A DNA stretch of 64,000 nucleotides from positions 18,465 through 82,464 of the forward strand of contig CAJJOL010000009.1 of the NCBI GenBank assembly GCA_905193385.1. Direction: 5' to 3'. The notes below the pieces were generated by a model. That model was not told where the DNA came from. It searched no databases and worked only from the letters and a program-made list of their open reading frames with translations. Origin of the DNA: an uncultured Prevotella sp. (GTDB taxonomy: Bacteria > Bacteroidota > Bacteroidia > Bacteroidales > Bacteroidaceae). The position numbers were made by a program, and so were the translations under genes. Shown one piece after another: positions 40,154 to 56,736 of the stretch (its first letter is position 1; every line of letters begins with the position of its first letter).

Positions 40154-40229
40154 AACACAAAAGCAACGAGATAACCTCAAATCGGTCATTTGGAAATGTA
40201 AGCCCCTTTTTCCTAATGACCGGTTATGG

Positions 40230-40287
40230 TTAAACATAAAAAGGCGTACAACCGAAATCGTAAAGATTGAGGTTGTACGCCTTTTGG
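40230..40287. repeat. ~58-bp hairpin direct repeat, copy A (TTAAACATAAAAAGGCGTACAACC...GGTTGTACGCCTTTTGG)
   Basis: Stem GGCGTACAACC/GGTTGTACGCC. Copy B at 51271-51327 is ~90% identical, including the loop. Confidence 0.8.
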
Positions 40288-41236: not shown

Positions 41237-41347
41237 ATTGTTGTTGTCTACAGAAAAAAACAATGCGATAAGTCATAATAAAGAAAAAGGGAGATGCCCT
41301 TACACACAGACAAACTAATACAAAAAGAAATCAACAAACATAATTAT

Positions 41348-43411
41348 ATGAACAACAGAACTCTACTTTTTGTCGTAGCTGCTTCGCTTGGCTGCTTAAA
41401 TGCCGTGGCAGGTAATGTTTATGACGGAACTAATGACGATAAGGACATTAGCAAGACAATAAATCTCAACCCGGTAGTAGTTACAGGAAACGGACACCAC
41501 CAGTTGCTTAAGTCTACCACGACACCAGTGCATGTGCTTTCACAGCAGGCAATAAAGGAAACTGGAACGACCGACTTTCAAGATGTGCTGACAAAGCTCA
41601 TGCCACAGGTGTCGTTCTCGCCTAACGCCATGGGATCATACATCCGTGTTAAGGGCTTGGGAAACAAATATGTGCTTGTTCTTGTCAACGGCAAAAAGAT
41701 GATAGGCGATATTGCAGGCAATGTAGACCTAAGCCGCATCAATATGTCGAAGGTAAAACGTATTGAGGTGCTTGATGGTGCTGCCTCTGCCCTTTATGGT
41801 TCAGATGCCATTGGCGGAGTGATAAACATCATTACTGATGAGAAGACAATGGACAAAGTAGTTGCTTCTTCAGATACACGACTATCGGGCAAAGGACAAT
41901 TTTCTGAAGGTGTGAACCTAGATGTTACATCAAAATATCTTGACTCTCACACCTCGTATTTTCATCAAGAGGCTGACAGTTATCAGAACAACAACATGGC
42001 TGTAGATGCTGACGGCAAAGAGTATGAGACGATAGCACCGCTGTTCATCGGTTTCAACTCAAACGTAATAAATCAGCACTTCGACATAAATCCTGCAAAG
42101 AATCTCTCAATGTATGCAGGTGGATCATACAGCTATAAACTTACCGACCGTCCCAACTCTCGTAAAGACATTACTGGAGGTTCCGATTATGACATGCGTA
42201 GCGAAGGATGGCGTTGGGAAGCGGGCGCAAAATATAATATGGGCAAACACTCTGTGCTCTTCGACTTCATAAACGACAACTACCACTATGGAAACCTCTA
42301 TCAGGTGGCAACGAATACTTATGACGTTGGAGACTTCGTGCGTAACAAGTCGCAAAAATACTATGAGGCTGAGCTGAAAGGCGTATTCCATTTCTATGAC
42401 AATGCAACGACGATCATTGGTGCTGACTGGCGTAACGACTTTCTCACGGCTACAAGCGGCAACGTAAACAACAATGTATACACACTTGCTGGATATGTGC
42501 AGCACGATATGGAGATTGTGAAAAATGTAAGTGCAACCCTTGGCATGCGCTACACCAAGCATGGCACCTTCGGAAACAACTTCACACCTAAGGTGGCATT
42601 GATGTATGCTCCTGGCAAATTCCGCTTCCGTGCTGCCTACTCACGCGGTTTCCGTGCACCAGGTCTCGACGAGCTCTACTATCACTACTTCAAGATGATG
42701 GGCAAGCGTCCTGTCATAACATTCGGAAACACAAACCTCAAGGCAGAAAGCAGCAACTACGTCTCATTGAGCGCAGAATACAGCAACAAGTTTCTTACAC
42801 TATCTGTTATGGGATATATGAACTTTGTTGACAATATGATTGTCAAGGAGAACATCACAATAGACGATGCTGCTCGTACTGAACTCGCACAACAGTTTCC
42901 TGAGGCAACAGCCGATCAGCTTGCGCAGCTGAAGACATACGGCCACTACATTAATAGTAATAAAGGCGTGGTAAGAGGACTACAGGCTAACGCAACTGTG
43001 AGTGTTACTAACGACATCTCTCTTATTGTAAACTATGCCTACACCAACGGCCGATCGAAGAACGCTGGCACATGGACCGCGCTTGAGCGAACCTTCAAGA
43101 ACAGCTTAACGGCAGGAGCCAACTACAACCACACTTGGCGCAACTATACCCTCGGTGTGAACCTCAACGGCCGCTTCCAGTCGGCAACTTATTATCCTGG
43201 CTATGAGAATGCTCCTGGCTATGGCGTAATAAACTTGAATACTACTCACACCTTTACCATAGGCAAAATGTTTAAACTTGTTCCTAGTGTCGGCATTGAC
43301 AATATCTTCAACAAGACAGATCATCGCACAGACACTCCTTTACAGAAAGTGGCACTTTACTCGCCTGGCAGAATGCTTGTGGTAGGACTAAACGTGAATT
43401 TTGCAAAATAA
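41348..43411 (+). CDS. TonB-dependent outer-membrane receptor
   Basis: Signal peptide, TonB-box-like NPVVVTGNG, plug motifs (RIEVLDGAASALYGSDAIGGVINIIT), and a large beta-barrel. Confidence 0.85.
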   Translation: MNNRTLLFVVAASLGCLNAVAGNVYDGTNDDKDISKTINLNPVVVTGNGHHQLLKSTTTPVHVLSQQAIKETGTTDFQDVLTKLMPQVSFSPNAMGSYIRVKGLGNKYVLVLVNGKKMIGDIAGNVDLSRINMSKVKRIEVLDGAASALYGSDAIGGVINIITDEKTMDKVVASSDTRLSGKGQFSEGVNLDVTSKYLDSHTSYFHQEADSYQNNNMAVDADGKEYETIAPLFIGFNSNVINQHFDINPAKNLSMYAGGSYSYKLTDRPNSRKDITGGSDYDMRSEGWRWEAGAKYNMGKHSVLFDFINDNYHYGNLYQVATNTYDVGDFVRNKSQKYYEAELKGVFHFYDNATTIIGADWRNDFLTATSGNVNNNVYTLAGYVQHDMEIVKNVSATLGMRYTKHGTFGNNFTPKVALMYAPGKFRFRAAYSRGFRAPGLDELYYHYFKMMGKRPVITFGNTNLKAESSNYVSLSAEYSNKFLTLSVMGYMNFVDNMIVKENITIDDAARTELAQQFPEATADQLAQLKTYGHYINSNKGVVRGLQANATVSVTNDISLIVNYAYTNGRSKNAGTWTALERTFKNSLTAGANYNHTWRNYTLGVNLNGRFQSATYYPGYENAPGYGVINLNTTHTFTIGKMFKLVPSVGIDNIFNKTDHRTDTPLQKVALYSPGRMLVVGLNVNFAK

Positions 43412-43494
43412 GACTTTTTAATGGAATATCAAGGAAAGCGGAAGCATCAGATAGTTGGTTTTCCGCTCTCCTTGCATTGATTATATAATGAATA

Positions 43495-44202
43495 ATGACT
43501 AAGAAAGTTCTTTTGAAACTTCATCTGTGGCTTTCCTTGCCTTTGGGAGTTATCATAATACTCATTTGCCTGTCTGGAGCTACACTCGTATTCAAAAATG
43601 AGATAAGAAATTCTCTTGAAATGCCAAAAGTCATTGCGCCACACGCAAAGAGCGTAAAAGTAGCCTATAGCGTAAAAGCGGGTGATGAAGAAAGGGTTGG
43701 CAAGACTATTGGCAAGTTTTCTTCCAAGGACGCTCCTTATGGTACAACGACAAAAAGAGATTTTTTCTCCTATGTCACCAAGTTTCACACCAGTCTCATG
43801 ATGGGACCTGTTGGCAAACTTATAATCACCTATACCACATTGCTCTTTATCTTCATCTTGATAAGTGGTATATTTGTTCTTCTGCCGAAAGACAGAAAGC
43901 AGTTGTGCCAACGCTTTAAGGTAGAATGGAACAAAGGAAGCAGACGCCGCCTCTTCGACCTTCACGTCAGTCTTGGCTGGTGGGCACTTCTTTGGTTTTT
44001 GCTTCTTTCTGTTACTGGCTTGGGGTTCGGCTTGAAGCTTGTACCTAAGGGTACTGAGTTGATGAGACTATTTCATGAACTGCATATAGGTTTGTGGGGA
44101 GGTATGTTGACAAAAATTATAACTTTTGTCGTAAGTCTCATAGGAGCATCACTGCCTATTACTGGTTACTTGCTTTATTTTCGGCGCAGGTGCAAAGCTT
44201 GA
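43495..44202 (+). CDS. PepSY-associated TM helix protein (PiuB-like)
   Basis: N-terminal KLHLWLSLPLGVIIILICLSGATLVF plus 3 further TM helices. This architecture is typical of PepSY_TM proteins encoded beside TonB receptors. Confidence 0.7.
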   Translation: MTKKVLLKLHLWLSLPLGVIIILICLSGATLVFKNEIRNSLEMPKVIAPHAKSVKVAYSVKAGDEERVGKTIGKFSSKDAPYGTTTKRDFFSYVTKFHTSLMMGPVGKLIITYTTLLFIFILISGIFVLLPKDRKQLCQRFKVEWNKGSRRRLFDLHVSLGWWALLWFLLLSVTGLGFGLKLVPKGTELMRLFHELHIGLWGGMLTKIITFVVSLIGASLPITGYLLYFRRRCKA

Positions 44203-44211
44203 TATTTTACA

Positions 44212-44300
44212 TATCCCAACGATAACGTATTCATCGCCCAACGATAACGTATTCATGTGCCAATGATAACGTATGCGTAAGCCGATGAATACGTATACGG
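44212..44300. repeat. Three ~22-bp direct repeats 'CCCAACGATAACGTATTCAT' plus one inverted partial copy (GATGAATACGTAT)
   Basis: Read directly: CCCAACGATAACGTATTCAT CG CCCAACGATAACGTATTCAT GTG CCAATGATAACGTATGCGT AAGCC GATGAATACGTATACGG. Confidence 0.8.
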
Positions 44301-44331
44301 CTAAAATATGAGTTATTTACATAGAATTGCT

Positions 44332-44856
44332 CTAAACATAACGAAGCCTTGTCTCCTCGTATATGTCATCAATACCATCAGCGAAACCATAGCCACATAC
44401 GCTCGCCCACTTGACACACTGCTGTAGTCGCTTGTCATACTTTTCCCACAAACCGTTTTTAGCAATGAACTCAACAGTCTTGGCGAAATTACCTTCAACA
44501 GACTCATAATACTGTTCCGACATATCACCGAAGTCGAATGTGAACTCTATGGCATATTCCATATACGACAGCATCAGTTCTGCAAGCGCATCGGCAGATG
44601 GCTTGAGCTTCTTGAAGTCAGTTACGGCTTTTCTGCAAACCGAAAAACGTGTCTTTGGTTCGCGACGTCCCTCAGGATAAAATTCAGCACGAATAATATC
44701 CTTGTATTCTTCGAGTTTGCTATTCTCGTCAGGACTTGCATAATACTCCAGATAATCCTTTGCTTCCTTGCGAGCATCATACATTTCAATCACCATTTCT
44801 ATTATCTCTTCCTTCGACATTGACCGAAGAAGTTTCTTTATCGTTGCTTTTGACAT
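44332..44856 (-). CDS. Hypothetical acidic cytoplasmic protein (~175 aa), unknown family
   Basis: Clean ORF with good codon usage, divergent from the Wadjet operon. No motif recognised. Confidence 0.5.
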   Translation of the reverse strand: MSKATIKKLLRSMSKEEIIEMVIEMYDARKEAKDYLEYYASPDENSKLEEYKDIIRAEFYPEGRREPKTRFSVCRKAVTDFKKLKPSADALAELMLSYMEYAIEFTFDFGDMSEQYYESVEGNFAKTVEFIAKNGLWEKYDKRLQQCVKWASVCGYGFADGIDDIYEETRLRYV

Positions 44857-44925
44857 AACTATTGTATTTTTCCACCAAAGATACAACTAATTTCTTATAT
44901 CTGAACGAAAATAACTATCTTTGTA

Positions 44926-44933
44926 AGCAAAAT
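44926..44933 (+). promoter_or_regulatory. -7 box TATCTTTG for the jetA operon
   Basis: TAnnTTTG ~18 nt upstream of the jetA ATG. Confidence 0.45.
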
Positions 44934-44950
44934 AACTAACTTCATAAACA

Positions 44951-46165
44951 ATGGACACACTATCGCACTTCCATTCACTTGACGAACTGATACGCGCTCT
45001 TGACAGAGAACGCAAACTTCTAAGCGGACTGTTTCAGGACCGCAAGCGACTGTCGTTCCGTTATGATGTGGCACGCGACATGGCAGCCAAGAAGGACGAA
45101 AGTCTGAAGTTTCTGCGCAGATTCGGAGTAATCAGAGAGAACGGCGACTTCGTGGAATTGGAGGATGTGTACATGAAGTTCTTTGAAGAAGTGCTCGAAG
45201 TGAACGAGGAGATAAACGTGGCGAGCGTAAAGGAGAGCATCGGCAATCTTAATGCCGCCATCGACTATTATCAAAGCGAGAACAGCCCCACACGCAAGTA
45301 CGGATACCTGAAGGACGTGAAGCGCATCCTGCGCAATATAGCTCTTACCACATTAAGAAACGTTATCGACTTAAAGCGAAACATCGACAATACATACAAG
45401 AACGAACCTACCTTCGCAGTAAAGAAGAAGAAACTGGTGAACCTTGATGAAAAGCGAAAGGACATAGCCGTGCTGATCAACGAATGCGAGAGGGTGATAG
45501 ACGAGAAACAAGCCACCTTCTTCATGATGGCAATGGACGTAGGACTGAAGGAGACGGTGACGGACGTGAAACTACAGCTTAGGGAGGTGTTTCACAACCT
45601 CCTCGAACTCGACCGGCAGATTATCAACTACCTCAACCTAATAGAATATCAGAACCGACTGTTCGAAAAAGTGCAGAAGCTGAAGTATCTGCGCGACCAG
45701 ATGCTGCTCGAAACCAACACCGACCTAAAGGCGAAGATGGACGCAAGGAATCCGGTATGGATGGAGCCTCGCCCAAGATATACGCTGAAGGTGTCGCTGT
45801 CAATGCTACGTACCACAGACCTCGGGCTGAAGATTCTGCAAGACGTTGCCAAAGGAAAACACAACAGCCGCTTGCGTAAAGGCAATCTGGCTGAACCGCT
45901 CACTAAGGAAGAACTTACCGAACAGCAACAGGTGCTGCAGATGGTGGACGTGCGTGAGGTGAAAACGGCATTCATGGCTTCGGGCGACAATCTCTTCCAC
46001 TTCGTAATGAACTATTCCGGATACAGAAAGAATATGACGGAAGAAGAAAAACTGGTGTTGTTCTGCCAGATTGCCGCACAATATCTTGACGAGCTTTTCA
46101 TAAGCGAAGAACATAGCCGACATGGCAACATTGAATTTCCATTGATTTATCCTAAAACAGCTTGA
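44951..46165 (+). CDS. jetA: Wadjet JetA-like (MksF/kleisin-like, DUF3375-type) protein
   Basis: First gene of a 4-gene operon with the JetA/JetB/JetC(SMC)/JetD(Toprim) order and size pattern. Helical, charged 404-aa protein. Called by synteny, not by motif. Confidence 0.5.
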   Translation: MDTLSHFHSLDELIRALDRERKLLSGLFQDRKRLSFRYDVARDMAAKKDESLKFLRRFGVIRENGDFVELEDVYMKFFEEVLEVNEEINVASVKESIGNLNAAIDYYQSENSPTRKYGYLKDVKRILRNIALTTLRNVIDLKRNIDNTYKNEPTFAVKKKKLVNLDEKRKDIAVLINECERVIDEKQATFFMMAMDVGLKETVTDVKLQLREVFHNLLELDRQIINYLNLIEYQNRLFEKVQKLKYLRDQMLLETNTDLKAKMDARNPVWMEPRPRYTLKVSLSMLRTTDLGLKILQDVAKGKHNSRLRKGNLAEPLTKEELTEQQQVLQMVDVREVKTAFMASGDNLFHFVMNYSGYRKNMTEEEKLVLFCQIAAQYLDELFISEEHSRHGNIEFPLIYPKTA

Positions 46166-46170
46166 CACTT

Positions 46171-46716
46171 ATGCGTTATACCAAAGACATATTCGACATA
46201 TTGAGCAGAGGTGGATTTATATCGCAAAACTCCGTCTCACAGCAAATCTCTAACCTTTATGATGCCATAGAAGATGACTTTCAGCAATACCAAGACTACT
46301 TCAGCGGAATTGGCTTTTTGCTTGAAGGCGGCAACGGATATTATTATTTCTCACGATCGGAGAACAAGGTGGAACTGGCGGACAAGGTACAGCGAATGGC
46401 AGAATGGATAGACAGGATTGACTTCCTCAAAACCTTTAACACTGCATTCGGGTCAGGATTCACATTCCGCAAATCGAATATCCTGGAGCAGTTCTCAAGC
46501 GACATAGAACTCAAGGAAAAGGCACGTCACCTTTATACCGACCTCAAAACCAACGATGAGAAAATGGACAAGCTGATAGGCGACCTACAACGTCAGGGAT
46601 TCGTGGAACTGCAGGATGAACTTGACGGCACTTTCAAGGTGACAGCAGCCTTCCATTACATAGAAGAACTTATTGATTGTCTCACCATTATAGAAACCGA
46701 TACCGAACAAGCATGA
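46171..46716 (+). CDS. jetB: Wadjet JetB-like (MksE/KITE-like, DUF4194-type) protein
   Basis: ~180-aa acidic protein translationally coupled to both neighbours (stop/start overlaps). Position matches JetB. Confidence 0.5.
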   Translation: MRYTKDIFDILSRGGFISQNSVSQQISNLYDAIEDDFQQYQDYFSGIGFLLEGGNGYYYFSRSENKVELADKVQRMAEWIDRIDFLKTFNTAFGSGFTFRKSNILEQFSSDIELKEKARHLYTDLKTNDEKMDKLIGDLQRQGFVELQDELDGTFKVTAAFHYIEELIDCLTIIETDTEQA

Positions 46717-49700
46717 GAGCATTACGCAAGATAATATTTGTGAACAGCGCACACATAAGATACGCAGAGGTGCGACTGGACGGAAATGTGCACTTCATCG
46801 GCACTCAAGGCGTGGGCAAGAGCACCCTGCTACGCGCCATTCTGTTTTTCTATAATGCCGACAAACTGCACCTTGGCATTCCCAAGGAGATGAAATCATA
46901 CGACGAATTTTATCTGCCACATGCCAATTCATACATCGTGTATGAGGTGGAGCATGAACACGGACCGTTCTGTGTGCTTACGTTCCGTTCGTCAGGCCGT
47001 GCCTGTTACCGATTCATAGACGCTGCATACCGTAAGGAATGGCTCATAGACAACAATGGAGACGTTACGGCAGACAGCAAGGTGATACGCGAGCGTCTGG
47101 GAGGAGCGTCGATGAGCAAGATAATTGACCGCTACGAACAATACCGCGACATTCTCTATGGCAACAGACAAGCCGTGGGCAAGGAGTTTGCACGTTTCCA
47201 ACTGATGGAGTCGAACCGTTATCAGAACATCCCGCGAAGCATACAGAACGTTTTTCTCAACTCACGACTGGATGCCAATTTCATCAAGGACATCATCATC
47301 CGCTCTATGAGTGATGAGGAAGCCAACATCGATCTCGGATATTACCGTCGTCAGGTGGCAGACTTCGAACAGGAATATAAGGACATCTCATGTTGGTATA
47401 AGCTGAATCAGAAAGGCGAATCCATAGTACGCACACAAGCGGAAAACGTGGTGAAGACTTACCGCGAACTGCTATTCATGAAGCGGCAGATAACCGAACT
47501 GTGCGGCGAACTGAAATATGCTGTACGCACATCAAGAGAACGTCTGCCTTTGGTGGAGAAGAAGATAGACGAGCTTATGGAGGAACAAAACCGACTGAAA
47601 AGGCTGATAAGCGAAATACAGCAGAAATTCGATATGGAGAAGTCGAGCCTCAACCAAGAGCAGGGCGTGGTGAACGACCGCCTCAAACGTCTGAAGAAAC
47701 GTAAGGAATATTATTCTGCCCAGAAGATAGAGGAGATACTGAATAGATACGAGCAGGAACAGATTCTGCGCGTAAAACTCGATGGAGACAATGCCCGACT
47801 GGCGGAACTCACGGCGCACTTTAATGACATAACAGCTAAATATAAGGCTCTTTATCAAGGGGCGAAGAACGTTTTGGAGAATTATCGTCAGTCGCAGACC
47901 AACCGCATCATCTCTCTCGGAATGGAAAAGCAAGCAGCAGACGAACGTATGCTCGCCGAACATACCAAGCAACGAGAGGATATAGAGGTGGCTTTCGCCG
48001 ATAAAATCACTCTCGCCACCAACTATATCGAACAACTTAAAGGCGAAAAGACGGAGCTGGAGAAAGAGATGCTGAAACTGAAATACTGGCAACCTTACAA
48101 GGAAGAGACTGACGCTCTCAGCAAAGAAACCAATGAACTGGCTTTACGTGAGAAAGAACTGAACGGACTGATTTCAGCCACGGAGGCTAAAATCAATCAG
48201 CTGCAGACCGAATACGAAAAGAACGAGGCTGAAATAATGGCGGACAGTAAAGCCAAGTTGGATGCAAAGCAGCACGAAATGGATGAAGTTGAGGGGAAGT
48301 TGACCGAGATAGACAGCTTGCTGGAAAGAACCAAGGGATCGCTCTATGAATGGCTGGAGGCGAACAAGCGCGATTGGGAACAGAACATAGGCAAGGTAAT
48401 AAACGAAGAAAGCGTGCTCTATCAGACCGGATTGCATCCGCAGAAGGACGAGGGAACATCGCTGTTCGGCGTGAAACTGGACCTTATGGACCTGCCACTT
48501 GCTGTGCGCAAACCTGCCCAACTGAAAGCGGAACGAGCAGAACTGGATGCGGCGCTTCGCTCGTTGAAGGCTGAATATGTTGGCTTGACGGAACTACAGG
48601 AGAAACTGCAGGACGAACTGAAACGACGCTTTGCTCCCAAGATGAGAGAATTGCGCGAACAGAAATCATACCATGAGACCGAATTGCGCGTCATTCCACA
48701 GAAACGCAAGACCATACAGCTGAAGATGGAAGACTATGCGGCTAAGGCTCAACATGAAAAGGAGGAAAGGAACAATCTGTTGAATACACGCCTGCAGGAT
48801 GTGCAGATACGCCGAACTGCTGCCGATATGGAACTTGCAAAGATACTGAACGATAAACAGAAACAGCTGACTTCTGAAGACAAGCGACACCAGAAAGCTA
48901 AGGAGGAAATAATCAAGCAGTACGAACAACGAGTGGCTGAAATACGTTCGGACATCATACTGCAAGAGCAGAAAACTGACAAGAAGCTGCAACTGCTGCA
49001 ACAGCAAGAGCATGAAGAACTGCACGGACGTGGAGCTGACACACGTATGGTGGAGGAATGCAAGGCTTCGATAAAGACGACAGAAACCGAACTTAAATAC
49101 ATAGACGACCACAGACGTATAGTGTTCGACTATCAGCGTGACTGCGAAGAACTGTTCGACCATGAGGAAGAATTCAAAACAAGGAAGAAACTCATCACCG
49201 ATCAGTTCCAGCAACTGAACGAGAAATACGATCTCCGCAAGCAGAAGCATAACGAAACGCTGAACTTACTGAGCAAAGAACTGAATGAACGCAGGGAGGA
49301 GAAGACCCGTATTGACAACGACCTGCATAAGGCTGAACGCTTCATACATGACAAAAACCTGTGTCCGCCAATGCTGGCAGAGGCACAAGAACGTCAGACA
49401 CTGCGCACGCCAGGACTGGCAGTGGACGAACTGACGGGCATAATTGTGTCACGCCAAAAAAGCCAAGACAAGCTGAAAAGCGCAGTGAACGTGTTCAAGG
49501 GCAATTTTACCGCTAAGAATACTTTCAACTTCCGTATGGAGCTGGCTCTTGATGAAGACTATCTCGACTTCGCCAATAATCTGGAAGACTTCCTTGTCTA
49601 CAACAAGATAGAAGAATTCCGACGCCGCACCAGCGAACGATATGTAGACATATTGGGACGTGTGTCCAAGGAGATGGGCGATCTGACGCGGCACGAATCG

Positions 49701-50360
49701 GATGTAGATAAGGTCATTCATGATATCAATAACGATTTCCGCGAACGCAATTTTGCCGGCGTCATAAAACTCATTGCCCTTCAACCCGTTCCTTCAGCAG
49801 ACAAGATGGTGCTGCTGATGAAGCGTATAAAGGATTTTCACGACGACAACCAATACACCATGGGTGAGCTAAACCTATTCTCCTCAGCCAATCGCGACGA
49901 CGTGAACCAGAAGGCTGTAGGACACCTGCTCGATCTGATGAAGTCGCTTGTTGACAATCCGCAACGACGATACCTTGCACTCTCTGACCTATTCCTGCTG
50001 CAGTTCCGCATCGTGGAGAACGACAACGACACGGGATGGGTGGACAAGCTGTCGCATGTGGGAAGCGAGGGAACGGACACATTGGTTAAGGCAATGATAA
50101 ACATCATGCTGATAAATGTATTCAAAGGAAAGGTAAGCCGTAAGTTCGGCGACTTCCGCATACATTGCATGATGGACGAAATCGGCAAGCTGCACCCGCA
50201 GAACGTGAAAGGCATACTCGACTTTGCCAATGCCCGAAACATACTGCTCATCAACTCTTCGCCCACCACATACAACGTTTCGGACTATCGCTACACCTAT
50301 CTGCTTAGCAAGGACAGCAAGTCGCAGACCGTGGTTCATCCTTTAATATCACAACAATAA
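46713..50360 (+). CDS. jetC: Wadjet JetC-like SMC-family ATPase (MksB/MukB-like)
   Basis: N-terminal Walker A GTQGVGKST, ~900 aa of coiled-coil, C-terminal signature-like LSHVGSEGTD followed ~35 aa later by Walker B HCMMDEIG. ATGA overlap with jetB. Confidence 0.7.
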   Translation: MRALRKIIFVNSAHIRYAEVRLDGNVHFIGTQGVGKSTLLRAILFFYNADKLHLGIPKEMKSYDEFYLPHANSYIVYEVEHEHGPFCVLTFRSSGRACYRFIDAAYRKEWLIDNNGDVTADSKVIRERLGGASMSKIIDRYEQYRDILYGNRQAVGKEFARFQLMESNRYQNIPRSIQNVFLNSRLDANFIKDIIIRSMSDEEANIDLGYYRRQVADFEQEYKDISCWYKLNQKGESIVRTQAENVVKTYRELLFMKRQITELCGELKYAVRTSRERLPLVEKKIDELMEEQNRLKRLISEIQQKFDMEKSSLNQEQGVVNDRLKRLKKRKEYYSAQKIEEILNRYEQEQILRVKLDGDNARLAELTAHFNDITAKYKALYQGAKNVLENYRQSQTNRIISLGMEKQAADERMLAEHTKQREDIEVAFADKITLATNYIEQLKGEKTELEKEMLKLKYWQPYKEETDALSKETNELALREKELNGLISATEAKINQLQTEYEKNEAEIMADSKAKLDAKQHEMDEVEGKLTEIDSLLERTKGSLYEWLEANKRDWEQNIGKVINEESVLYQTGLHPQKDEGTSLFGVKLDLMDLPLAVRKPAQLKAERAELDAALRSLKAEYVGLTELQEKLQDELKRRFAPKMRELREQKSYHETELRVIPQKRKTIQLKMEDYAAKAQHEKEERNNLLNTRLQDVQIRRTAADMELAKILNDKQKQLTSEDKRHQKAKEEIIKQYEQRVAEIRSDIILQEQKTDKKLQLLQQQEHEELHGRGADTRMVEECKASIKTTETELKYIDDHRRIVFDYQRDCEELFDHEEEFKTRKKLITDQFQQLNEKYDLRKQKHNETLNLLSKELNERREEKTRIDNDLHKAERFIHDKNLCPPMLAEAQERQTLRTPGLAVDELTGIIVSRQKSQDKLKSAVNVFKGNFTAKNTFNFRMELALDEDYLDFANNLEDFLVYNKIEEFRRRTSERYVDILGRVSKEMGDLTRHESDVDKVIHDINNDFRERNFAGVIKLIALQPVPSADKMVLLMKRIKDFHDDNQYTMGELNLFSSANRDDVNQKAVGHLLDLMKSLVDNPQRRYLALSDLFLLQFRIVENDNDTGWVDKLSHVGSEGTDTLVKAMINIMLINVFKGKVSRKFGDFRIHCMMDEIGKLHPQNVKGILDFANARNILLINSSPTTYNVSDYRYTYLLSKDSKSQTVVHPLISQQ

Positions 50361-50392
50361 AACACATCAGAAACAGCTGACTATATTCGTAT

Positions 50393-51274
50393 ATGAAGAT
50401 TACGTCATCTCTTATAGACAAGCTTATCAGACTTCGCTCAGGTGAGTCACTTCCGTCCAGTGCCCTACGTGGTGAATGGGTGGAAGAACTCCTAAGCGAC
50501 GGTGTGCTTATCAGCCGTTCACACGGAAGCAGAAGCTGCATAATTGCGGCTTCTCCAGATACATTGGAAAAAAGTCTGATGCATATCAACGAACGGTTAG
50601 GCCATCTCGACAAAATGAAAGAGACTCTTGACGCGGAAACAACAAGGTCAGAACAGGCGGCAGAAACGGGTAATTCCAAACTTGTGACAGCACGCTCATG
50701 CCCAGGTTTTCCAGTCAATTCATACGAACCAATCATATGCTGTCTGAACGGTAAGGAGCTGGTGGTCAATCCACAGGAAGGCACATTCCTATTCATTGCC
50801 GATTGGCAATCATTTGCCATACCTGCCGATGTGACCGTCGTAAACATCGAGAACATGGAGAACTTCCGCCTTATACGTCGTCAGCAATCCTTGTTTGCCT
50901 CTGCATTGGCAGGCAAACAACTGCTGTTCGTGTCGCGCTATCCGCAGTCGTCCGACCTACGGACATGGTTGCAGACCATCCCTAACCAGTACGTCCACTT
51001 CGGCGATTTCGACCTCGCCGGCATCCATATCTTCCTTACAGAATTTCAAAAACACCTCGGCACACGTGCCTCTTTCCTCATTCCGCAAGACATAGAACAG
51101 CGCATAAAGCATGGTTCGGCAGAGAGATACAACGACCAATATCCAAAATTCTGCCACCTCACCTCCAATATCCCGCCACTACAGCAACTGATAGATATGC
51201 TCCACAAATATCACCGCTGCTACGACCAGGAAGGATATATAGAGAATAGTCTGACAGAACATCACATCACTTAA
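50393..51274 (+). CDS. jetD: Wadjet JetD-like Toprim nuclease (MksG/topo VI-A-like), short form
   Basis: Toprim catalytic residues VVNIENMENF (Glu) and YVHFGDFDLAGIHIF (DxD), as in Spo11/topoVI-A and JetD. Only 293 aa, shorter than typical JetD. Confidence 0.6.
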   Translation: MKITSSLIDKLIRLRSGESLPSSALRGEWVEELLSDGVLISRSHGSRSCIIAASPDTLEKSLMHINERLGHLDKMKETLDAETTRSEQAAETGNSKLVTARSCPGFPVNSYEPIICCLNGKELVVNPQEGTFLFIADWQSFAIPADVTVVNIENMENFRLIRRQQSLFASALAGKQLLFVSRYPQSSDLRTWLQTIPNQYVHFGDFDLAGIHIFLTEFQKHLGTRASFLIPQDIEQRIKHGSAERYNDQYPKFCHLTSNIPPLQQLIDMLHKYHRCYDQEGYIENSLTEHHIT

Positions 51275-51327
51275 ACATAAAAAAGCGTACAACCAAAATC
51301 ATTAAGATTTAAGTTGTACGCCTTTTG
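51271..51327. repeat. ~58-bp hairpin direct repeat, copy B (TTAAACATAAAAAAGCGTACAACC...GTTGTACGCCTTTTGT)
   Basis: Overlaps the jetD stop codon. ~6 mismatches relative to copy A at 40230. Confidence 0.8.
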
Positions 51328-51699
51328 TTATTAATTCGGATTAAGATTTACAAATTGGTCAAACTTACTTCACTTCCTCGAAATGCAAACCGTTATTAAA
51401 CAAGCCATTTGCGTGAGCGTGCTGCAAATATGGAAATAAGCAACGATAAGCAAACACGCACTCAACTGCTGCAAAGGTAGTGCAAATGAAGAGAAAAACA
51501 AAAATAAATCACATTTATTTTTATTTCCGAGGTGCAGCCTACCTTATTAAAAGGTAGTGCTTTACCACAAAAACACATGATAAAACGCCCCAAAAACTAC
51601 AAATAAAATACCTCAAAAATTATAAATGGATTACAACAAAAAATTAAAATAAAACACATCAAAAACTTAAAATACGTTTGGTAATCAAATTAAAATGAG

Positions 51700-51707
51700 T
51701 ACCTTTG
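51700..51707 (+). promoter_or_regulatory. -7 box TACCTTTG
   Basis: TAnnTTTG ~22 nt upstream of the ATG at 51729, in a very AT-rich 380-bp spacer. Confidence 0.45.
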
Positions 51708-51728
51708 CAGCATAAAACAAAATCGAAT

Positions 51729-53018
51729 ATGGCATATCTAAATAGAGTCTTTGACTTGCGACTTAAAGCGCATCTTAAAGCAATGGGAGCAGTGCTCATT
51801 GAAGGACCAAAATGGTGTGGCAAAACCACCACTGCCAAGCAATTGGCCAATAGTGTTATTAGTTTACAAGATACTGACCATCGTGAAGAATATTTGGCTA
51901 CAGCCATTACCAAGCCCTCATTCTTATTAGAAGGGGAAGTGCCTCGCTTGATAGATGAATGGCAAGATGCCCCAATGCTATGGGATGCAGTGCGCACAAA
52001 GGTTGATGAGCGTGGCTTGCCTGGTCAATTCATATTGACAGGGTCTAACGCTATTGACGACAGTAAAATCCATCATAGTGGAACAGGGCGTATTTCCCGG
52101 ATGGAGATGCTGCCCATGAGCCTGTGGGAATATGGTGAATCTAACGGCAGCGTATCATTGATGGAGATGTTCGACAATCCTCAAGAAGAAATCTTCGCTA
52201 CCTCGGAACTAAAAATGGAAGAAATCATATTTGCTGCATGCAGAGGAGGTTGGCCAGCAACATTGAATTTAGGTGACGACAAGTCAAAATTACTTGTTGC
52301 CAAAGAGTATGTAAAGTCTGTATATAAGAATGACATATCACGCATAGATGGAGTAAAGAGAAATCAGAAGTTGGCGCACCTGATAATGAAATCATACGCA
52401 CGCAACATCTCAACATTGGCGAAAACCACATCCATATTGGCAGACGTTACTGCTTCTGATGATGTAGAATGTACCAGGCCTACGCTTGAAAGCTACATCG
52501 AGGCATTGGAAAAACTGTTTGTCATTCAGGACATAGAGGCTTGGTGCCCTTCCATAAGGAGCAAGACAACAATCCAAAGCAGACCCAAACGAGCGTTCTG
52601 TGATCCATCGGTTGCAGTCGCATTACTCAACCTGTCACCAGAATCCTTAATGACTCAGTTAAAGACATTTGGCTTTATTTTTGAGCAAATGTGCGCACGA
52701 GATCTTAGGGTGTATTCAGCCTCTCACGATAGCCGCCTGTCATACTATCGCGACCGCTACGGACTGGAAGCCGACTTGGTGCTTCATCTTGACGATGGAC
52801 GCTATGCTCTGATAGAGTGCAAACTTGGCAGCCGTGAAATAGAAGAAGGAGCCAAACATCTTTTGGAAATTAAACGACTTATTCAAGTGCATAATGAAAC
52901 AGAAAAGCAGGTGACGTTGCGCGAACCCGACTTGATGATTGTCATGACAGGTGGCAGCATGGCTTACACACGCCCAGACGGAGTCAAAGTCATACCGCTT
53001 GCTTGTTTGAAAGATTAA
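51729..53018 (+). CDS. AAA+ family ATPase with DUF4143 C-terminal domain (COG1373-like)
   Basis: N-terminal MAYLNRVFDLRLKAHLKAMGAVLIEGPKWCGKTTTA (Walker A). ~430 aa. Characteristic of the Bacteroides AAA_14/DUF4143 ATPase family. Confidence 0.75.
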   Translation: MAYLNRVFDLRLKAHLKAMGAVLIEGPKWCGKTTTAKQLANSVISLQDTDHREEYLATAITKPSFLLEGEVPRLIDEWQDAPMLWDAVRTKVDERGLPGQFILTGSNAIDDSKIHHSGTGRISRMEMLPMSLWEYGESNGSVSLMEMFDNPQEEIFATSELKMEEIIFAACRGGWPATLNLGDDKSKLLVAKEYVKSVYKNDISRIDGVKRNQKLAHLIMKSYARNISTLAKTTSILADVTASDDVECTRPTLESYIEALEKLFVIQDIEAWCPSIRSKTTIQSRPKRAFCDPSVAVALLNLSPESLMTQLKTFGFIFEQMCARDLRVYSASHDSRLSYYRDRYGLEADLVLHLDDGRYALIECKLGSREIEEGAKHLLEIKRLIQVHNETEKQVTLREPDLMIVMTGGSMAYTRPDGVKVIPLACLKD

Positions 53019-53033: not shown

Positions 53034-53717
53034 ATGGGAACAGTATTACTGGCACTCTGCTTCTGTGCGTTGTCGCTCGTCCTTGCCTTGTTTGTGGGCA
53101 TATCGCCCATAAGCGACAAGGCGAAAGTAAGGTTTATGTATGTCTGTGCTGCGCTGTCGTTGATGGCAGTGCCAATGATGAGCCATTATATTGCAGGGCT
53201 GAACGATATTGTGGACGAGCTGCGTTATCAAGCTGTGCTTGTGTTCATCGTCGTTGTGTGTTGCTATTGCTTCGTCATGGCAAATATGGTGAAGTACAAT
53301 GTCATGAAGAAAAAGGTGGCGGTGCTTGAGGACACGGTAGAGAAGCTGGAGCAAGAACGTGCGGCAGCAATGTCGCAAGCCGTGGATGAAGATCAGCAGC
53401 ACAAAGTACAAGAAGCACTCGACTGGTTTGCAGCAAAGATGAGCGTGTTCAGCAAAGAAGAGCAAGAGGCCATCAACGCTTGTGCCATTGCCTTTGCCGA
53501 GCGCGACCTGGTAGTAATACCCAAAGTCAGCATAGCCGTTAATGCCAAATGCAGCCAAGCCGACCTCATGGCGTATGCCAGTTCCACATTCTTCAAGATT
53601 GGCAAGAAGCGTAAGGATATTGCACGGTTCCTCAGCATTGTATTCGAAGCTTACTTCCCTGGTGGCGAGGGATTTGTGTATAAGAAGATGCCAGGAGCGA
53701 AAGAATGCCAGAAATAG
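53034..53717 (+). CDS. Hypothetical protein: 3 N-terminal TM helices plus cytoplasmic coiled-coil region
   Basis: Hydrophobic N-terminus (LLALCFCALSLVLALFVGI, VCAALSLMAVPMM, VLVFIVVVCCYCFVMA) then VAVLEDTVEKLEQERAAAMSQ coiled-coil. No family recognised. Confidence 0.5.
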   Translation: MGTVLLALCFCALSLVLALFVGISPISDKAKVRFMYVCAALSLMAVPMMSHYIAGLNDIVDELRYQAVLVFIVVVCCYCFVMANMVKYNVMKKKVAVLEDTVEKLEQERAAAMSQAVDEDQQHKVQEALDWFAAKMSVFSKEEQEAINACAIAFAERDLVVIPKVSIAVNAKCSQADLMAYASSTFFKIGKKRKDIARFLSIVFEAYFPGGEGFVYKKMPGAKECQK

Positions 53718-54150
53718 GTAGTTTAGGCATATTGGCTACGCCTTATTACGGCAAATTTAGCTCCAAGAAGAAAAACATAGTAAAACATTCGTTATTCTGA
53801 TTGTTTTGCGTTAACTTTGCACAGGATATCCACTTGCTGGAAGCCCAAAGGGCAAGCGGGTGGGTTTTGACTTTATGGAAATGGGCGTTTACTTAGCGCC
53901 TGTCTTTGACATGTCGTAACTTCGCAACTTACAGTAATCGTCAAAGGACGGTGGCAACCAGTAAATGCTCACGGTAAGGTATATTATACCCTGCCGTGAT
54001 TTGTCGTATATGTACTTATTGTATGTATACGGCTGCTCACGTATGGGATTAATATATACCATGCGTGGGCTTTCAGCGTTGTCCGTCTCGACGATTAGGG
54101 CAATGCGAAGGCCTCGACATGTGGGATGGGCAAAGGCGAATCCCACGCTT

Positions 54151-54158
54151 TATTTTTG
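54151..54158 (+). promoter_or_regulatory. -7 box TATTTTTG upstream of the BREX-like operon
   Basis: TAnnTTTG ~77 nt upstream of the brxP-like ATG, after a 500-bp non-coding spacer. Confidence 0.35.
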
Positions 54159-54234
54159 TAGAGGTACAGCAATTTTTTATAATTATCGTCGGAGATTGGG
54201 GTTCTATCCGCACCTAATAAGAGGTAGAGCCGAA

Positions 54235-56736
54235 ATGTACAAAATAACATGGGACAAAGAAACGGGAGGAGTACTGCTCCACTCTCGCATTGTGGAAGGT
54301 ACGTTGGGTATCTCCCCCCGTCCTGTGTTCTTTGAGGAGCTGGACTTGTTGGGGCTTGATAAACTTGGATGGACTTATCCTCATGTGGAAGAGCCGATTA
54401 TGTGGGCTGTCAACAAGCAGTATTGGTATAGGGGAGTGAGGCTCTTTGATGCCAAGGGCGCCAATATATACACCAAACCTACACTGGAGATACAACCTGG
54501 TATAGAACCAATGGAGTTGGTGCCTGTTGACGTGAAGAAGATGCTTCAGCGTACATCTGATTTGATGTTCGTATTGGAGAATGAAGCCATAGAATTTATC
54601 CGTGACACTTATTTGGCGTATGCCAAAGCAAATAAAACCTACAACAAGGCTGATGCCAACAAACTGGACTTCGAGACGATGGCAGAGCGCGTGGAAAAGA
54701 AGAGCAAGCAACACATGGCTGTGGTTAAACAGGATTGTGACTCGTTCGATATCATGCCTCTTGCTACGGCAGAAAAAGAAGGCAAGCGTGTGCTGCTATC
54801 TACCAAAATAGACCGCTTTATAGCAAGTTTCTCTGGTGGTAAGGATTCGCAAGTGGTACTCGACTTGTGTACACGTGCCATTCCTCCTACAGACTTTGAG
54901 GTCATTTATAGCGACACCGGCTATGAACTGCCTCCTTCTCTCGCTCTTTACAAAGACGTGGAGGCGTACTATAAAAAGAAGTTTCCTTCACTCCGTTTCC
55001 TTACAGCCAGCAACCACGAGTCGGTACTGAGCTATTGGGACAAGATTGGCACACCAAGTGACAATCACCGTTGGTGCTGCTCGGTGATGAAGACGGCACC
55101 GTTGTACCGAATGTTGAAAGTTGAAGGCAACAAGCAAGCACGTGTTCTGACATTCGACGGAGTGAGAGCGGAGGAGTCTGTAAGGAGAAGTGGATATAAT
55201 CGAATTGGAAAAGGTGTTAAACATTCGACTGTTATCAATGCAAGTCCAATATTATCTTGGTCTTCTGTTGAAGTATTTTTGTATTTGTTCCGCTATGGCT
55301 TCCCAATTAATATTGCATACAGACGTGGTATAACAAGAGTTGGATGTATTATTTGTCCTTTTTCCTCTGAATGGAATGACATGGTGGTTAATCAAACTTT
55401 TCATGAAAAACTTGAGCCCTTTTTGTCACGAATTGAAGACAATGTAAAACGTAACAAGGTACAGGATTTTAGAAATTATATTGAAGATGGAAACTGGAAA
55501 CGACGAGCCGGCGGTCGTGACATTCATTCTTCCTCAGCTATTGACTTTCTGTCTTCAAAGCCAGACTTGAATGTCATGTTGATCAAACCACAGAAGCATC
55601 CTTTAACATGGATTAGCGCTATTGCTCCATTTACAGGTTCTGAAAAACAAGGAGAACTCAAATACAGGAATGAAGTATACTCATACAAGTGTGAAAATAA
55701 TGGTGATGTTTATAGTCTGTCTTTCAAAAATACAGCAAAAAGTTTAGCGTTGCAAGGATTGATAAAAAGGGCTTTGAATAAGGCCACATTTTGCATAAAT
55801 TGTGAAGCTTGTGAAGTAGAATGTCCGACAGGTGCATTATCTATTTTACCAAAAGCCGAAATAGACACTAATAAATGTATCCATTGTGGGAAATGCCTAA
55901 ATTTCCATGAAACTGGATGTATTGTAGCTCATTCATTAAAAATAACAGAAACACCAAAGAGTAAAATGAAACTGATTAGTTATAATAATTTTGGATTACG
56001 TGAAGAATGGTTAGACTACTATATGTCTAATCATGACGATTATTTTCAGACAACAAATCATGGACTAAATGTCAAGGAGCAGTTGCCAAGTTTTGTAAAA
56101 TGGCTTGTTCAGGCAGAAATTCTTTCTGATACAAAGAAAAGAGAAATTACCCCATTTGGAAAGTTGCTTATCGAAATATATGAGAACAATCCAAGTTTAG
56201 TATGGCAAATTATTTGGATAAACTTGACGTACAATTCTCCTATAGCACATTGGTATTCGCAGAATGTTTCTTTCGGAAGCAATTTCACTGATGCTGATTT
56301 GAGAGAAGGGGTAAAGAATGATTATTCCAGTGACAGCACAACAACGATAAAGAATGTTGTGTATGCTCTCACTCGTACATTTAAGGAGAGTCCTATAGGT
56401 GAGGAACTTGGTCAAATGACTAAAGTTGATAAGAACACATATACTCGATCTGGATTTTCAGATATTGAGGTGGAAGCAGTCGCATATTCATTATACAAAT
56501 ATGCACAGATAAAGGAAAGCAACTTGATGAGAGTTTCCGACTTTTACAAAGCTGATGAAAAGGACGGAATATATAAGGAATTTGGTATTTCAAAAAGTGA
56601 TTTGGAAAAGAAATTGCGTTTTCTTTCTTCTGATAGTCACAGAGTATTGGTGGCAGAACTAAATATGGGTTTGGATCATATTACACTAAGAGATGATTTA
56701 ACTCCTGAAAAAGCTTTAGAGACATTAGCGAAATGA
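54235..56736 (+). CDS. brxP: BrxP-like protein: PAPS-reductase/PP-loop ATP-pyrophosphatase domain plus 4Fe-4S ferredoxin-type Cys cluster
   Basis: PP-loop FSGGKDSQVVLDLC and DTGYELPPSL of the PAPS_reduct family (as in DndC/SspD/BrxP). CINCEACEVECPTG...CIHCGKCLNFHETGC dicluster motif. 834 aa. First gene of a brxP-brxC-pglZ-brxL-order operon. Confidence 0.6.
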   Translation: MYKITWDKETGGVLLHSRIVEGTLGISPRPVFFEELDLLGLDKLGWTYPHVEEPIMWAVNKQYWYRGVRLFDAKGANIYTKPTLEIQPGIEPMELVPVDVKKMLQRTSDLMFVLENEAIEFIRDTYLAYAKANKTYNKADANKLDFETMAERVEKKSKQHMAVVKQDCDSFDIMPLATAEKEGKRVLLSTKIDRFIASFSGGKDSQVVLDLCTRAIPPTDFEVIYSDTGYELPPSLALYKDVEAYYKKKFPSLRFLTASNHESVLSYWDKIGTPSDNHRWCCSVMKTAPLYRMLKVEGNKQARVLTFDGVRAEESVRRSGYNRIGKGVKHSTVINASPILSWSSVEVFLYLFRYGFPINIAYRRGITRVGCIICPFSSEWNDMVVNQTFHEKLEPFLSRIEDNVKRNKVQDFRNYIEDGNWKRRAGGRDIHSSSAIDFLSSKPDLNVMLIKPQKHPLTWISAIAPFTGSEKQGELKYRNEVYSYKCENNGDVYSLSFKNTAKSLALQGLIKRALNKATFCINCEACEVECPTGALSILPKAEIDTNKCIHCGKCLNFHETGCIVAHSLKITETPKSKMKLISYNNFGLREEWLDYYMSNHDDYFQTTNHGLNVKEQLPSFVKWLVQAEILSDTKKREITPFGKLLIEIYENNPSLVWQIIWINLTYNSPIAHWYSQNVSFGSNFTDADLREGVKNDYSSDSTTTIKNVVYALTRTFKESPIGEELGQMTKVDKNTYTRSGFSDIEVEAVAYSLYKYAQIKESNLMRVSDFYKADEKDGIYKEFGISKSDLEKKLRFLSSDSHRVLVAELNMGLDHITLRDDLTPEKALETLAK

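What the first reader, a model, noticed from the sequence alone, without database searches (positions are those of the whole stretch)
44926..51327. Four-gene Wadjet-like (JetABCD / MksFEBG) condensin anti-plasmid system with an unusually short Toprim subunit
Four translationally coupled genes run 404 aa, ~180 aa, ~1215 aa and 293 aa. The ~1215-aa protein is an SMC-family ATPase: N-terminal Walker A GTQGVGKST, a long coiled-coil, and C-terminal LSHVGSEGTD plus Walker B CMMDEIG. The last gene carries Toprim Glu (IENMENF) and DxD (GDFDLAG) residues, as in JetD and topo VI-A. This order and size pattern matches the Wadjet plasmid-restriction systems. The JetD-like protein is ~100 aa shorter than typical JetD, which suggests a reduced or divergent N-terminal arm. 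The operon has its own TAnnTTTG promoter and ends at a hairpin that is duplicated 11 kb upstream.
Basis: partly seen in the sequence, partly recalled or inferred. Interest (0 to 1): 0.7.

Follow-up and report, generated by a model that had tools for sequence, protein, structure and literature searches.

The report
Divergent Wadjet-like SMC–nuclease defence operon
This Prevotella operon encodes an unannotated, highly divergent relative of the Wadjet/MksBEFG plasmid-cutting machines, with a compact topoisomerase-VI-like nuclease; the same four genes are conserved across gut Bacteroidota, and current defence-system models detect them only weakly.

Summary
A TAnnTTTG motif sits 28 nt upstream, and the terminator hairpin has a second copy 11,043 bp upstream.

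- Gene 2 is a MksE-type KITE (Pfam PF21980, 1.4e-40).
- Gene 3 is a DUF3584 SMC-like ATPase (3.3e-65).
- Gene 1 matches nothing in any library. Its kleisin role is inferred from position only.

The gene order is conserved in about 60 Bacteroidota loci, down to about 30% identity, with unrelated flanks rich in defence candidates. Here the operon sits next to PDC-S01 and a type 4 BREX system. Close relatives carry a 5.3-kb deletion of it.

PADLOC Jet models and NCBIfam Mks models give only sub-threshold hits, PGAP calls the genes hypothetical, and I found no paper on it.

Verdict: a real, probably functional Wadjet-like system and a new variant of a known kind. Anti-plasmid activity is inferred, not shown.

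The parts
44916..44923 (+). TATCTTTG, a match to the Bacteroidota -7 promoter consensus TAnnTTTG, 28 nt upstream of the g1 ATG. A mirror copy on the - strand (44876-44883) faces the divergent DUF6155 gene.
   Evidence: Position is suggestive only: the motif occurs 53 times in the window against about 35 expected.
44951..46165 (+). g1, 404 aa. Orphan protein in the position of the kleisin (JetA/MksF). Putative kleisin by synteny only.
   Evidence: ORF. No Pfam, PADLOC, NCBIfam or PDB hit, either alone or as a profile. hhalign against E. coli MukF gives probability 1.5%. Always first in the conserved module.
46171..46716 (+). g2, 181 aa (184 aa if the TTG at 46162 is used). MksE-type KITE subunit.
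   Evidence: Pfam PF21980 MksE 1.4e-40 over the full profile. DUF4194 scores only 0.013. NCBIfam MksE equivalog 20.9 bits against a cutoff of 400. Start site.
46713..50360 (+). g3, 1215 aa. SMC-like ABC ATPase (JetC/MksB-like, DUF3584): N-terminal head about 1-243, arm, hinge block about 537-601, arm, C-terminal head about 928-1200.
   Evidence: Pfam DUF3584 3.3e-65. PADLOC JetC1 matches only the first 54 profile positions, 2e-5. Invariant G30xQGVGKS37, VGSxGTD 1116-1122 and HCMMDE 1151-1156, plus a conserved hinge block. ATGA overlap with g2.
50393..51274 (+). g4, 293 aa. Compact winged-helix + Toprim nuclease (DUF7281), MksG/JetD/topo VI-A-like, with catalytic E153 and D205-x-D207.
51285..51327 (+). 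Terminator-like hairpin (GCGTACAAC ... GTTGTACGC) followed by CTTTTGTT.
   Evidence: -18.1 kcal/mol, z -6.9. Also present after g4 in L001 and L002.
40242..40284 (+). Paralogous copy of the same hairpin, 11,043 bp upstream, after an unrelated 728-aa ORF. Not part of the operon. Probably a repeated terminator element rather than an island boundary.
   Evidence: -29.7 kcal/mol, z -7.8. Both copies are kept in the deletion strains L001 and L082, whose breakpoints lie elsewhere.

Best explanation
The operon encodes a Wadjet/MksBEFG-like SMC-nuclease DNA-restriction complex.

Shown:
- g3 is an SMC-like ABC ATPase with intact nucleotide-binding motifs and the conservation pattern of two heads, two arms and a hinge.
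- g2 is a MksE-type KITE.
- g4 has the fold of the MksG/topo VI-A nuclease, with the metal-binding Glu and DxD conserved.
- The four genes form a conserved module that moves between variable, defence-rich sites and is lost in close relatives.

Inferred, by analogy with type I and type II Wadjet:
- g1 bridges the g3 heads as a kleisin and holds a g2 dimer.
- The g1-g2-g3 motor loads on DNA and extrudes loops using ATP.
- On a small circular DNA, extrusion runs out of substrate and stalls.
- A g4 dimer is then licensed to cut both strands hydrolytically. No conserved CAP tyrosine exists, so no covalent topoisomerase-type intermediate is expected.
- Because g4 lacks the arm of type I JetD, which docks on the JetC larynx and JetB, docking must use another surface, probably its N-terminal winged helix.
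For: - Domain assignments.
- Catalytic residue conservation across 82 representatives at 28-55% identity: E153 0.99, D205 1.00, D207 0.99, Q279 0.99, E280 0.93. No Tyr exceeds 0.48 in the N-terminal 140 residues.
- g3 invariant ATPase motifs and hinge block.
- Synteny of all four genes wherever the contig allows, 98% down to about 30% identity, in Prevotella, Bacteroides, Phocaeicola, Parabacteroides, Alistipes, Muribaculaceae, Barnesiella and Persicobacter. The link survives a gene-order permutation, g4-g1-g2-g3.
- Accessory and defence context: PDC-S01 and BREX type 4 lie immediately downstream here. Flanks in 29 other loci are unrelated to each other and enriched in PDC-S01, PDC-S05, Schlafen/AlbA_2, Fic, GmrSD and HipA.
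- Natural 5.29-kb deletion allele in near-identical strains.
- Absent from phage records and rare on plasmids.
- Mechanism of characterised Wadjet systems: 10.1101/2023.11.03.565488, 10.1101/2025.03.10.642339, PMC10123090.
Against:
- None of the four proteins hits a solved Jet, Mks or Muk chain by sequence, even as profiles.
- PADLOC Jet models give only partial, weak hits.
- JetD_C is below Pfam's gathering score for this protein.
- The arm that couples type I JetD to JetABC is missing, so the coupling step has no precedent.
- No functional data exist for any member.
Confidence: 0.7

Rival explanations
1. Same machine, different target. It restricts phages, or the circular excised intermediates of the integrative conjugative or mobilisable elements that dominate gene transfer in Bacteroidales, rather than classical plasmids.
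For: It sits in islands with anti-phage systems (BREX type 4, PDC candidates). One distant member lies inside an element carrying an integrase, a ParA-like ATPase, ART-PolyVal and MuF_C. The nuclease lacks the type I docking arm, so licensing could differ.
Against: All characterised Wadjet systems, types I and II, select small circular DNA by extrusion and leave linear DNA intact (10.1101/2025.03.10.642339). Nothing in the sequence indicates phage sensing.
Confidence: 0.15
2. A housekeeping MksBEF/MukBEF-type chromosome-organising condensin with an accessory topoisomerase-like partner.
For: g2 carries the Pfam name MksE. SMC-KITE complexes such as MukBEF and P. aeruginosa MksBEF organise chromosomes.
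Against: - The chromosomal location varies and the flanks are unrelated.
- A 5.29-kb deletion exists in near-identical strains, and other remnants of g3 tail plus g4 occur.
- Neighbours are defence genes.
- A nuclease partner with conserved metal ligands and no CAP tyrosine is always present.
- The NCBIfam Mks equivalogs are not matched.
- hhalign against MukF and MukE gives probability 1.5%.
Confidence: 0.05
3. A Rad50/SbcC- or Gabija/OLD-like ATPase-nuclease that recognises DNA ends or particular structures without loop extrusion. In this reading g1 and g2 are adaptors, not a kleisin-KITE pair.
For: g1 cannot be shown to be a kleisin. Toprim nucleases also work with ABC ATPases in OLD/Gabija systems. 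g3 gives weak AAA_15 and AAA_29 hits.
Against: - The best g3 match by far is DUF3584 (220 bits), with no SbcC, Rad50 or RecN hit.
- A bona fide KITE (MksE) is present.
- The g4 fold is closest to MksG and topo VI-A, not OLD or GajA.
- The four-gene order and sizes mirror JetABCD.
Confidence: 0.08

Closest known systems
Wadjet type I (JetABCD, e.g. E. coli GF4-3, P. aeruginosa) / C. glutamicum MksBEFG
   Same: - Four-gene operon in the order kleisin-position gene, KITE, SMC-like ATPase, Toprim nuclease.
- g3 carries DUF3584, the domain PADLOC lists for JetC1.
- The only PADLOC hits are to type-I-labelled models (JetB1, JetC1, JetD1).
- Defence-island context.
   Different: - No significant full-length HMM match to JetA, JetB, JetC or JetD models, and no sequence match to any solved Jet or Mks chain.
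- The nuclease is about 100 aa shorter. It has a compact winged helix instead of the arm-CAP that docks on the JetC larynx and the JetB IFDR motif.
- The KITE is short (181 aa) and belongs to the Pfam MksE family rather than DUF4194.
- The first gene is an orphan with no DUF3375 similarity.
- The family is apparently confined to Bacteroidota.
Topoisomerase VI subunit A / Spo11
   Different: No conserved tyrosine in the N-terminal domain. No GHKL B subunit in the operon. The partners are an SMC-like ATPase and a KITE. Sequence identity is only 10-13%.
MksBEF (P. aeruginosa type) and MukBEF condensins
   Same: SMC-like ATPase plus a KITE of the MksE Pfam family, with an upstream gene in the kleisin position.
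   Different: - NCBIfam MksE equivalog scores 20.9 bits against a cutoff of 400, and there is no MksB or MksF hit.
- hhalign against E. coli MukF and MukE gives probability 1.5%.
- A nuclease gene is always attached.
- The distribution is patchy and the system is dispensable.
Pfam DUF7281 (PF23947)
   Same: g4 and 80 of 82 family representatives pass this model. All database homologues carry this annotation.
   Different: This is a domain of unknown function with no literature. The model covers only the Toprim half, residues 148-284.

Membership tests
Wadjet (JetABCD, types I-III as modelled in PADLOC/Pfam) | SMC-like ATPase JetC (DUF3584 in type I) | tested here: met
   Pfam DUF3584 3.3e-65, 220.8 bits. 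The C-terminal head fragment left in the deletion alleles also carries DUF3584. However, PADLOC JetC1 matches only 54 of 1146 profile positions, 2e-5.
Wadjet (JetABCD, types I-III as modelled in PADLOC/Pfam) | KITE subunit JetB (DUF4194 in type I) | tested here: not met
   DUF4194 15.7 bits against a gathering score of 32.7; PADLOC JetB1 0.043. The KITE role itself is supported through Pfam MksE, 1.4e-40.
Wadjet (JetABCD, types I-III as modelled in PADLOC/Pfam) | Kleisin JetA (DUF3375 and equivalents) | tested here: not met
   No hit for g1 or for 21 diverse homologues in Pfam, PADLOC or NCBIfam at E up to 10. No PDB hit with profiles.
Wadjet (JetABCD, types I-III as modelled in PADLOC/Pfam) | JetD/MksG Toprim nuclease with catalytic Glu and DxD and no catalytic CAP tyrosine | tested here: met
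Wadjet (JetABCD, types I-III as modelled in PADLOC/Pfam) | JetD N-terminal arm (aCAP / DUF3322) that docks on JetC and JetB | tested here: not met
   g4 is 293 aa, against PADLOC JetD profiles of 387-409 positions. In the model, residues 1-52 form a winged helix followed by short helices, with no elongated arm. There is no DUF3322 hit. The whole family is 277-303 aa.
Wadjet (JetABCD, types I-III as modelled in PADLOC/Pfam) | Four genes co-transcribed as one conserved module | tested here: met
   Overlapping or closely spaced genes. Same order in about 60 loci, plus a permuted g4-first variant.
Wadjet (JetABCD, types I-III as modelled in PADLOC/Pfam) | ATP-dependent restriction of small circular DNA | not testable with these tools
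   Needs transformation or conjugation assays and in vitro cleavage.
MksBEF (NCBIfam equivalogs) | MksB, MksE and MksF equivalog scores above cutoff | tested here: not met
   Only MksE is hit, 20.9 bits against a cutoff of 400. There is no MksB or MksF hit, and none for g1 homologues.
MukBEF | Detectable homology of g1 to MukF and of g2 to MukE | tested here: not met
   hhalign probability 1.5% for both. No MukB Pfam hit for g3.
Topoisomerase VI-A / Spo11 | CAP (winged helix) plus Toprim fold | tested here: met
Topoisomerase VI-A / Spo11 | Catalytic tyrosine in the CAP domain and a GHKL B-subunit partner | tested here: not met
   The highest Tyr frequency in residues 1-140 is 0.48. No GHKL/HATPase domain occurs in the operon.
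Pfam DUF7281 (PF23947) | Score above the gathering threshold | tested here: met
   37.8 bits against a threshold of 27. 80 of 82 representatives match.

The most novel reading that the evidence does not exclude
This is a fourth, Bacteroidota-specific type of Wadjet. Its kleisin-position protein is so divergent, or of independent origin, that it is invisible to every current model. Its minimal 'armless' winged-helix + Toprim nuclease must be licensed by the SMC motor through an interface different from the JetD arm, JetC larynx and JetB IFDR contacts of type I. It would be a hidden barrier to small plasmids, and perhaps to circular ICE intermediates, in human-gut Prevotella and Bacteroides, one that current defence-system models recognise only weakly.
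Probability: 0.5. Interest if true: 0.65.

Novelty: new variant of a known kind. Interest (0 to 1): 0.55.

Why it matters
Wadjet is the model system for how an SMC motor distinguishes self from non-self DNA by size and topology. Only types I and II have been studied mechanistically.

A widespread lineage with a topo VI-A-sized nuclease lacking the docking arm, a short KITE and an unrecognisable kleisin would serve as a natural minimal version. It could show which contacts are essential for coupling extrusion stalling to cleavage.

Practical consequences:
- The family is common in gut Bacteroidales (Prevotella/Segatella, Bacteroides, Phocaeicola, Parabacteroides), is annotated as hypothetical, and gets only sub-threshold hits from PADLOC v2 models. 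Defence censuses of the gut microbiome are therefore likely to under-count it.
- It may help explain strain-to-strain differences in plasmid carriage and in genetic tractability.
- The natural deletion alleles offer ready-made isogenic comparisons in metagenomes.

Tried and rejected
- The first AF2 run of g4, with 17 close homologues, gave pLDDT 40.6 and was discarded. Rerunning with 82 diverse representatives gave pLDDT 94.8.
- The afdb50 fold library was unavailable.
- Sequence and profile searches of all four proteins against PDB found only coiled-coil noise.
- g1 was scanned against Pfam, PADLOC and NCBIfam, alone and per member. A single CNDH2_C (kleisin wHTH) hit at 0.0066 maps to residues 88-148 of one homologue, not the C-terminus, and is treated as spurious.
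- hhalign of g1 against MukF and of g2 against MukE was negative.
- I tested whether the divergent DUF6155 gene (44332-44886) is a fifth component. It is adjacent in only 2-3 of 80 loci, and the 184-aa ORF downstream of g4 in other Prevotella contigs is unrelated to it. Rejected.
- I tested whether the two hairpins are boundaries of an 11-kb mobile segment. Close relatives keep both copies, and their breakpoints lie elsewhere (44503|49791 and 51383). The hairpins are therefore more likely copies of a terminator element.
- Rfam and tRNA scans of the window were empty.
- Literature searches for DUF7281, for a fourth Wadjet type and for Wadjet in Bacteroidales found nothing relevant.


Full report
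**1. Observation**

The window carries four + strand ORFs at 44951-46165 (404 aa), 46162/46171-46716 (184/181 aa), 46713-50360 (1215 aa; 1227 aa from an upstream TTG) and 50393-51274 (293 aa).
- GTQGVGKST, LSHVGSEGTD and CMMDEIG in gene 3
- IENMENF and GDFDLAG in gene 4

Gene junctions:
- g1/g2: either a 4-nt overlap or a 5-nt gap
- g2/g3: an ATGA overlap
- g3/g4: a 32-nt spacer

So 'translationally coupled' is right for two of the three junctions.

TATCTTTG, a TAnnTTTG match, lies at 44916-44923, 28 nt before the g1 ATG. A mirror copy on the other strand faces the divergent gene. The motif is only mildly enriched in the window, 53 copies against about 35 expected, so it is positional evidence only.

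The operon ends in a strong hairpin at 51285-51321 followed by a T-run (-18.1 kcal/mol, z -6.9). A clearly related copy lies at 40242-40284 (-29.7 kcal/mol, z -7.8), 11,043 bp upstream on the same strand.

**2. What the proteins are**

*Gene 2* matches Pfam MksE (PF21980) over the whole profile at 1.4e-40. DUF4194, the JetB family of type I, scores only 0.013, and the NCBIfam MksE equivalog scores 20.9 bits against a cutoff of 400.

*Gene 3* matches DUF3584 at 3.3e-65, the domain PADLOC attaches to JetC1. PADLOC's own JetC1 model aligns only to the first 54 positions, at 2e-5. In an alignment of 17 homologues at 34-82% identity, the invariant residues fall into three blocks:
- an N-terminal head, including G30xQGVGKS37
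- a central block at 537-601, where an SMC hinge would sit
- a C-terminal head, with VGSxGTD 1116-1122 and HCMMDE 1151-1156

The poorly conserved stretches between these blocks give only coiled-coil-type hits in PDB. There is no RecN, SbcC, Rad50 or MukB hit.

*Gene 4* matches DUF7281 (PF23947, 37.8 bits, gathering score 27). It matches JetD_C sub-threshold (18.2 bits against 22) and PADLOC JetD1 at 1e-4.

*Gene 1* matches nothing in Pfam, PADLOC, NCBIfam or PDB. This held for the protein alone, for 21 homologues scanned individually, and for profiles that included 23-34% identical members. hhalign against E. coli MukF gave probability 1.5%.

**3. The nuclease**

An exhaustive search of 1.84 billion cluster representatives found 431 clusters with E up to 1e-3. 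Apart from fragments, their lengths are about 275-305 aa. So 293 aa is the family norm and not a truncation.

In 82 representatives at 28-55% identity, the best-conserved residues are E153 (0.99), H202, G204, D205 (1.00), D207 (0.99), Q279 (0.99) and E280 (0.93). These include the Toprim Glu and the DxD. No tyrosine in the first 140 residues exceeds 0.48. JetD_C is hit by 49 of the 82, best 8e-7.

A first AF2 model from close homologues was useless (pLDDT 40.6). With the 82-sequence alignment the model reached pLDDT 94.8 and pTM 0.83. Its layout is:
- a winged helix, residues 1-52
- short helices, 55-92
- a small beta unit, 106-135
- a Toprim domain, 147-285

Type I JetD and MksG are described as an arm-CAP module flexibly joined to Toprim. 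They lack the catalytic tyrosine, and the arm-CAP docks on the JetC larynx and a JetB motif (10.1101/2023.11.03.565488; 10.1101/2025.03.10.642339; PMC10123090). Gene 4 therefore has the catalytic half and a CAP-like winged helix but not the arm. By spacing, Q279/E280 could correspond to the second acidic pair discussed for MksG (E349/E351), and R182/Y183 to MksG Y258. Both correspondences are my inference.

**4. Conservation and context**

A scan of one genome per species found 92 matching loci, of which 80 were kept. Nearly all are labelled Bacteroidales; a few MAG bins carry Firmicutes names. Wherever the contig reaches far enough, the order g1-g2-g3-g4 is kept, from 98% down to 35-45% identity. 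The genes that flank the operon in this window are not conserved in those loci.

The same module, annotated 'hypothetical protein' and 'ATP-binding protein' by PGAP, occurs on Persicobacter (Cytophagales) replicon pPP6. It also occurs around g4 homologues of about 30% identity in metagenome contigs, one of them inside an element with an integrase, a ParA-like ATPase, ART-PolyVal and MuF_C. Two loci have the permuted order g4-g1-g2-g3. There are no phage hits and only four plasmid records.

In this window the operon is followed by:
- a PDC-S01-type AAA_14/DUF4143 ATPase (51705-53018)
- a type 4 BREX system: BrxP 53965-56736, BrxC 57210-60695, PglZ 60700-63117, and an open frame running off the window end

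I took a census of 107 flanking ORFs from 29 other loci. It returned 133 different Pfam families. The commonest were AAA_14/DUF4143 (12 and 9 ORFs), Schlafen/AlbA_2, Fic, RhuM, GmrSD_N and HipA. On the PADLOC side the hits were PDC-S01, S05, S04, S23 and Argonaute-associated SIR2.

A near-identical genome (L001) and several metagenome contigs (L082-L084) are collinear with window 35063-51383. They carry a 5.29-kb deletion joining 44503 to 49791, which removes the promoter, g1, g2 and g3 residues 1-1026. Past 51383 they have different genes in place of PDC-S01 and BREX. The system is therefore dispensable and sits at a strain-variable hotspot.

**5. Mechanism**

Shown: an SMC-like ATPase with intact motifs, a KITE, a MksG/topo VI-A-fold metal-dependent nuclease without a CAP tyrosine, tight operon linkage, and an accessory, defence-island distribution.

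Inferred by analogy with characterised Wadjet:
- g1 acts as the kleisin and closes a g3 dimer into a ring that holds a g2 dimer.
- The motor extrudes DNA and stalls on small circles.
- Stalling licenses a g4 dimer to make a hydrolytic double-strand cut.
- How g4 docks without an arm is unknown.

I put about 0.7 on this overall picture. The weakest link is g1.

**6. Comparison with known systems, and novelty**

The system works like Wadjet/MksBEFG and is closest to type I: it has DUF3584, only type-I-labelled PADLOC hits, and MksG as the best structural match. It still fails several sequence-level membership tests:
- no JetA or DUF3375 hit
- DUF4194 below threshold
- JetD_C below threshold for this protein
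- no arm or DUF3322
- no match to NCBIfam Mks equivalogs or to any solved Jet, Mks or Muk chain

The literature I could search recognises three Wadjet types and mentions neither DUF7281 nor a Bacteroidota variant. I therefore file it as a new variant of a known kind, a candidate fourth Wadjet lineage, rather than a member of types I-III or something categorically new.

Interest is moderate at 0.55. The architecture is what a specialist would expect. The minimal nuclease, the orphan kleisin-position protein, the breadth in gut Bacteroidota and the weak recognition by PADLOC and NCBIfam models make it worth follow-up.

Noticed in passing
window 53965-64000: Type 4 BREX system immediately downstream: BrxP (PAPS reductase + 4Fe-4S, PADLOC 1e-265) at 53965-56736, an unassigned 150-aa ORF at 56733-57185, BrxC at 57210-60695 and PglZ at 60700-63117. 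An open frame of at least 294 aa runs off the window end and is probably BrxL; I did not test it.
   Followed up: partly
window 51705-53018; flanks of L003-L079; L081: An AAA_14 + DUF4143 ATPase (PADLOC candidate PDC-S01, 1e-65) directly follows the operon. The same family is the commonest neighbour of the four-gene module in 29 other loci (12 of 107 flanking ORFs), and AAA ATPases flank the module on Persicobacter pPP6. This could be a recurrent partner, or simply a frequent resident of such islands.
   Followed up: partly
window 44503-49791; L001, L082-L084: Near-identical Prevotella genomes and metagenome contigs carry a 5.29-kb deletion whose two alignment segments overlap by 12 nt at the junction. 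It removes the promoter, g1, g2 and g3 residues 1-1026, and leaves a 224-aa g3 tail plus an intact g4. A second small gap removes window 44275-44396. In L082, homology to the window stops at 51383.
   Followed up: yes
L010 10001-16307; L037 10001-16301; L016; L020: The gene order is permuted to g4-g1-g2-g3 in two loci. Independent remnants, a g3 C-terminal tail of about 80 aa next to an intact g4, occur in L020, and in L016 with about 5 kb between tail and g4.
   Followed up: partly
window 44332-44886 (- strand): Divergent DUF6155 gene (Pfam 2e-20). It probably starts at Met11 (44856), because a TATCTTTG motif on its strand lies at 44876-44883, inside the longest ORF. It is adjacent to the module in only 2-3 other loci, so it is not a conserved component.
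   Followed up: yes
window 40242-40284 and 51285-51327: The two copies of the roughly 50-nt A-tract/hairpin/T-tract element are very similar but not identical. Both are kept in strains with the deletion. They look like a repeated, possibly bidirectional, terminator element rather than recombination sites.
   Followed up: partly
L090 1-18882: A g4 homologue of about 30% identity sits in the same four-gene module inside what looks like an integrated mobile element: tyrosine integrase, DEAD helicase, ParA-like ATPase, ART-PolyVal and MuF_C. An anti-plasmid-type system may therefore be carried by a mobile element.
   Followed up: no
window 37967-40153 and 53034-53717: Two ORFs have no Pfam or PADLOC hit: a 728-aa ORF ending just before hairpin copy 1, and a 227-aa ORF between PDC-S01 and BrxP.
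   Followed up: no
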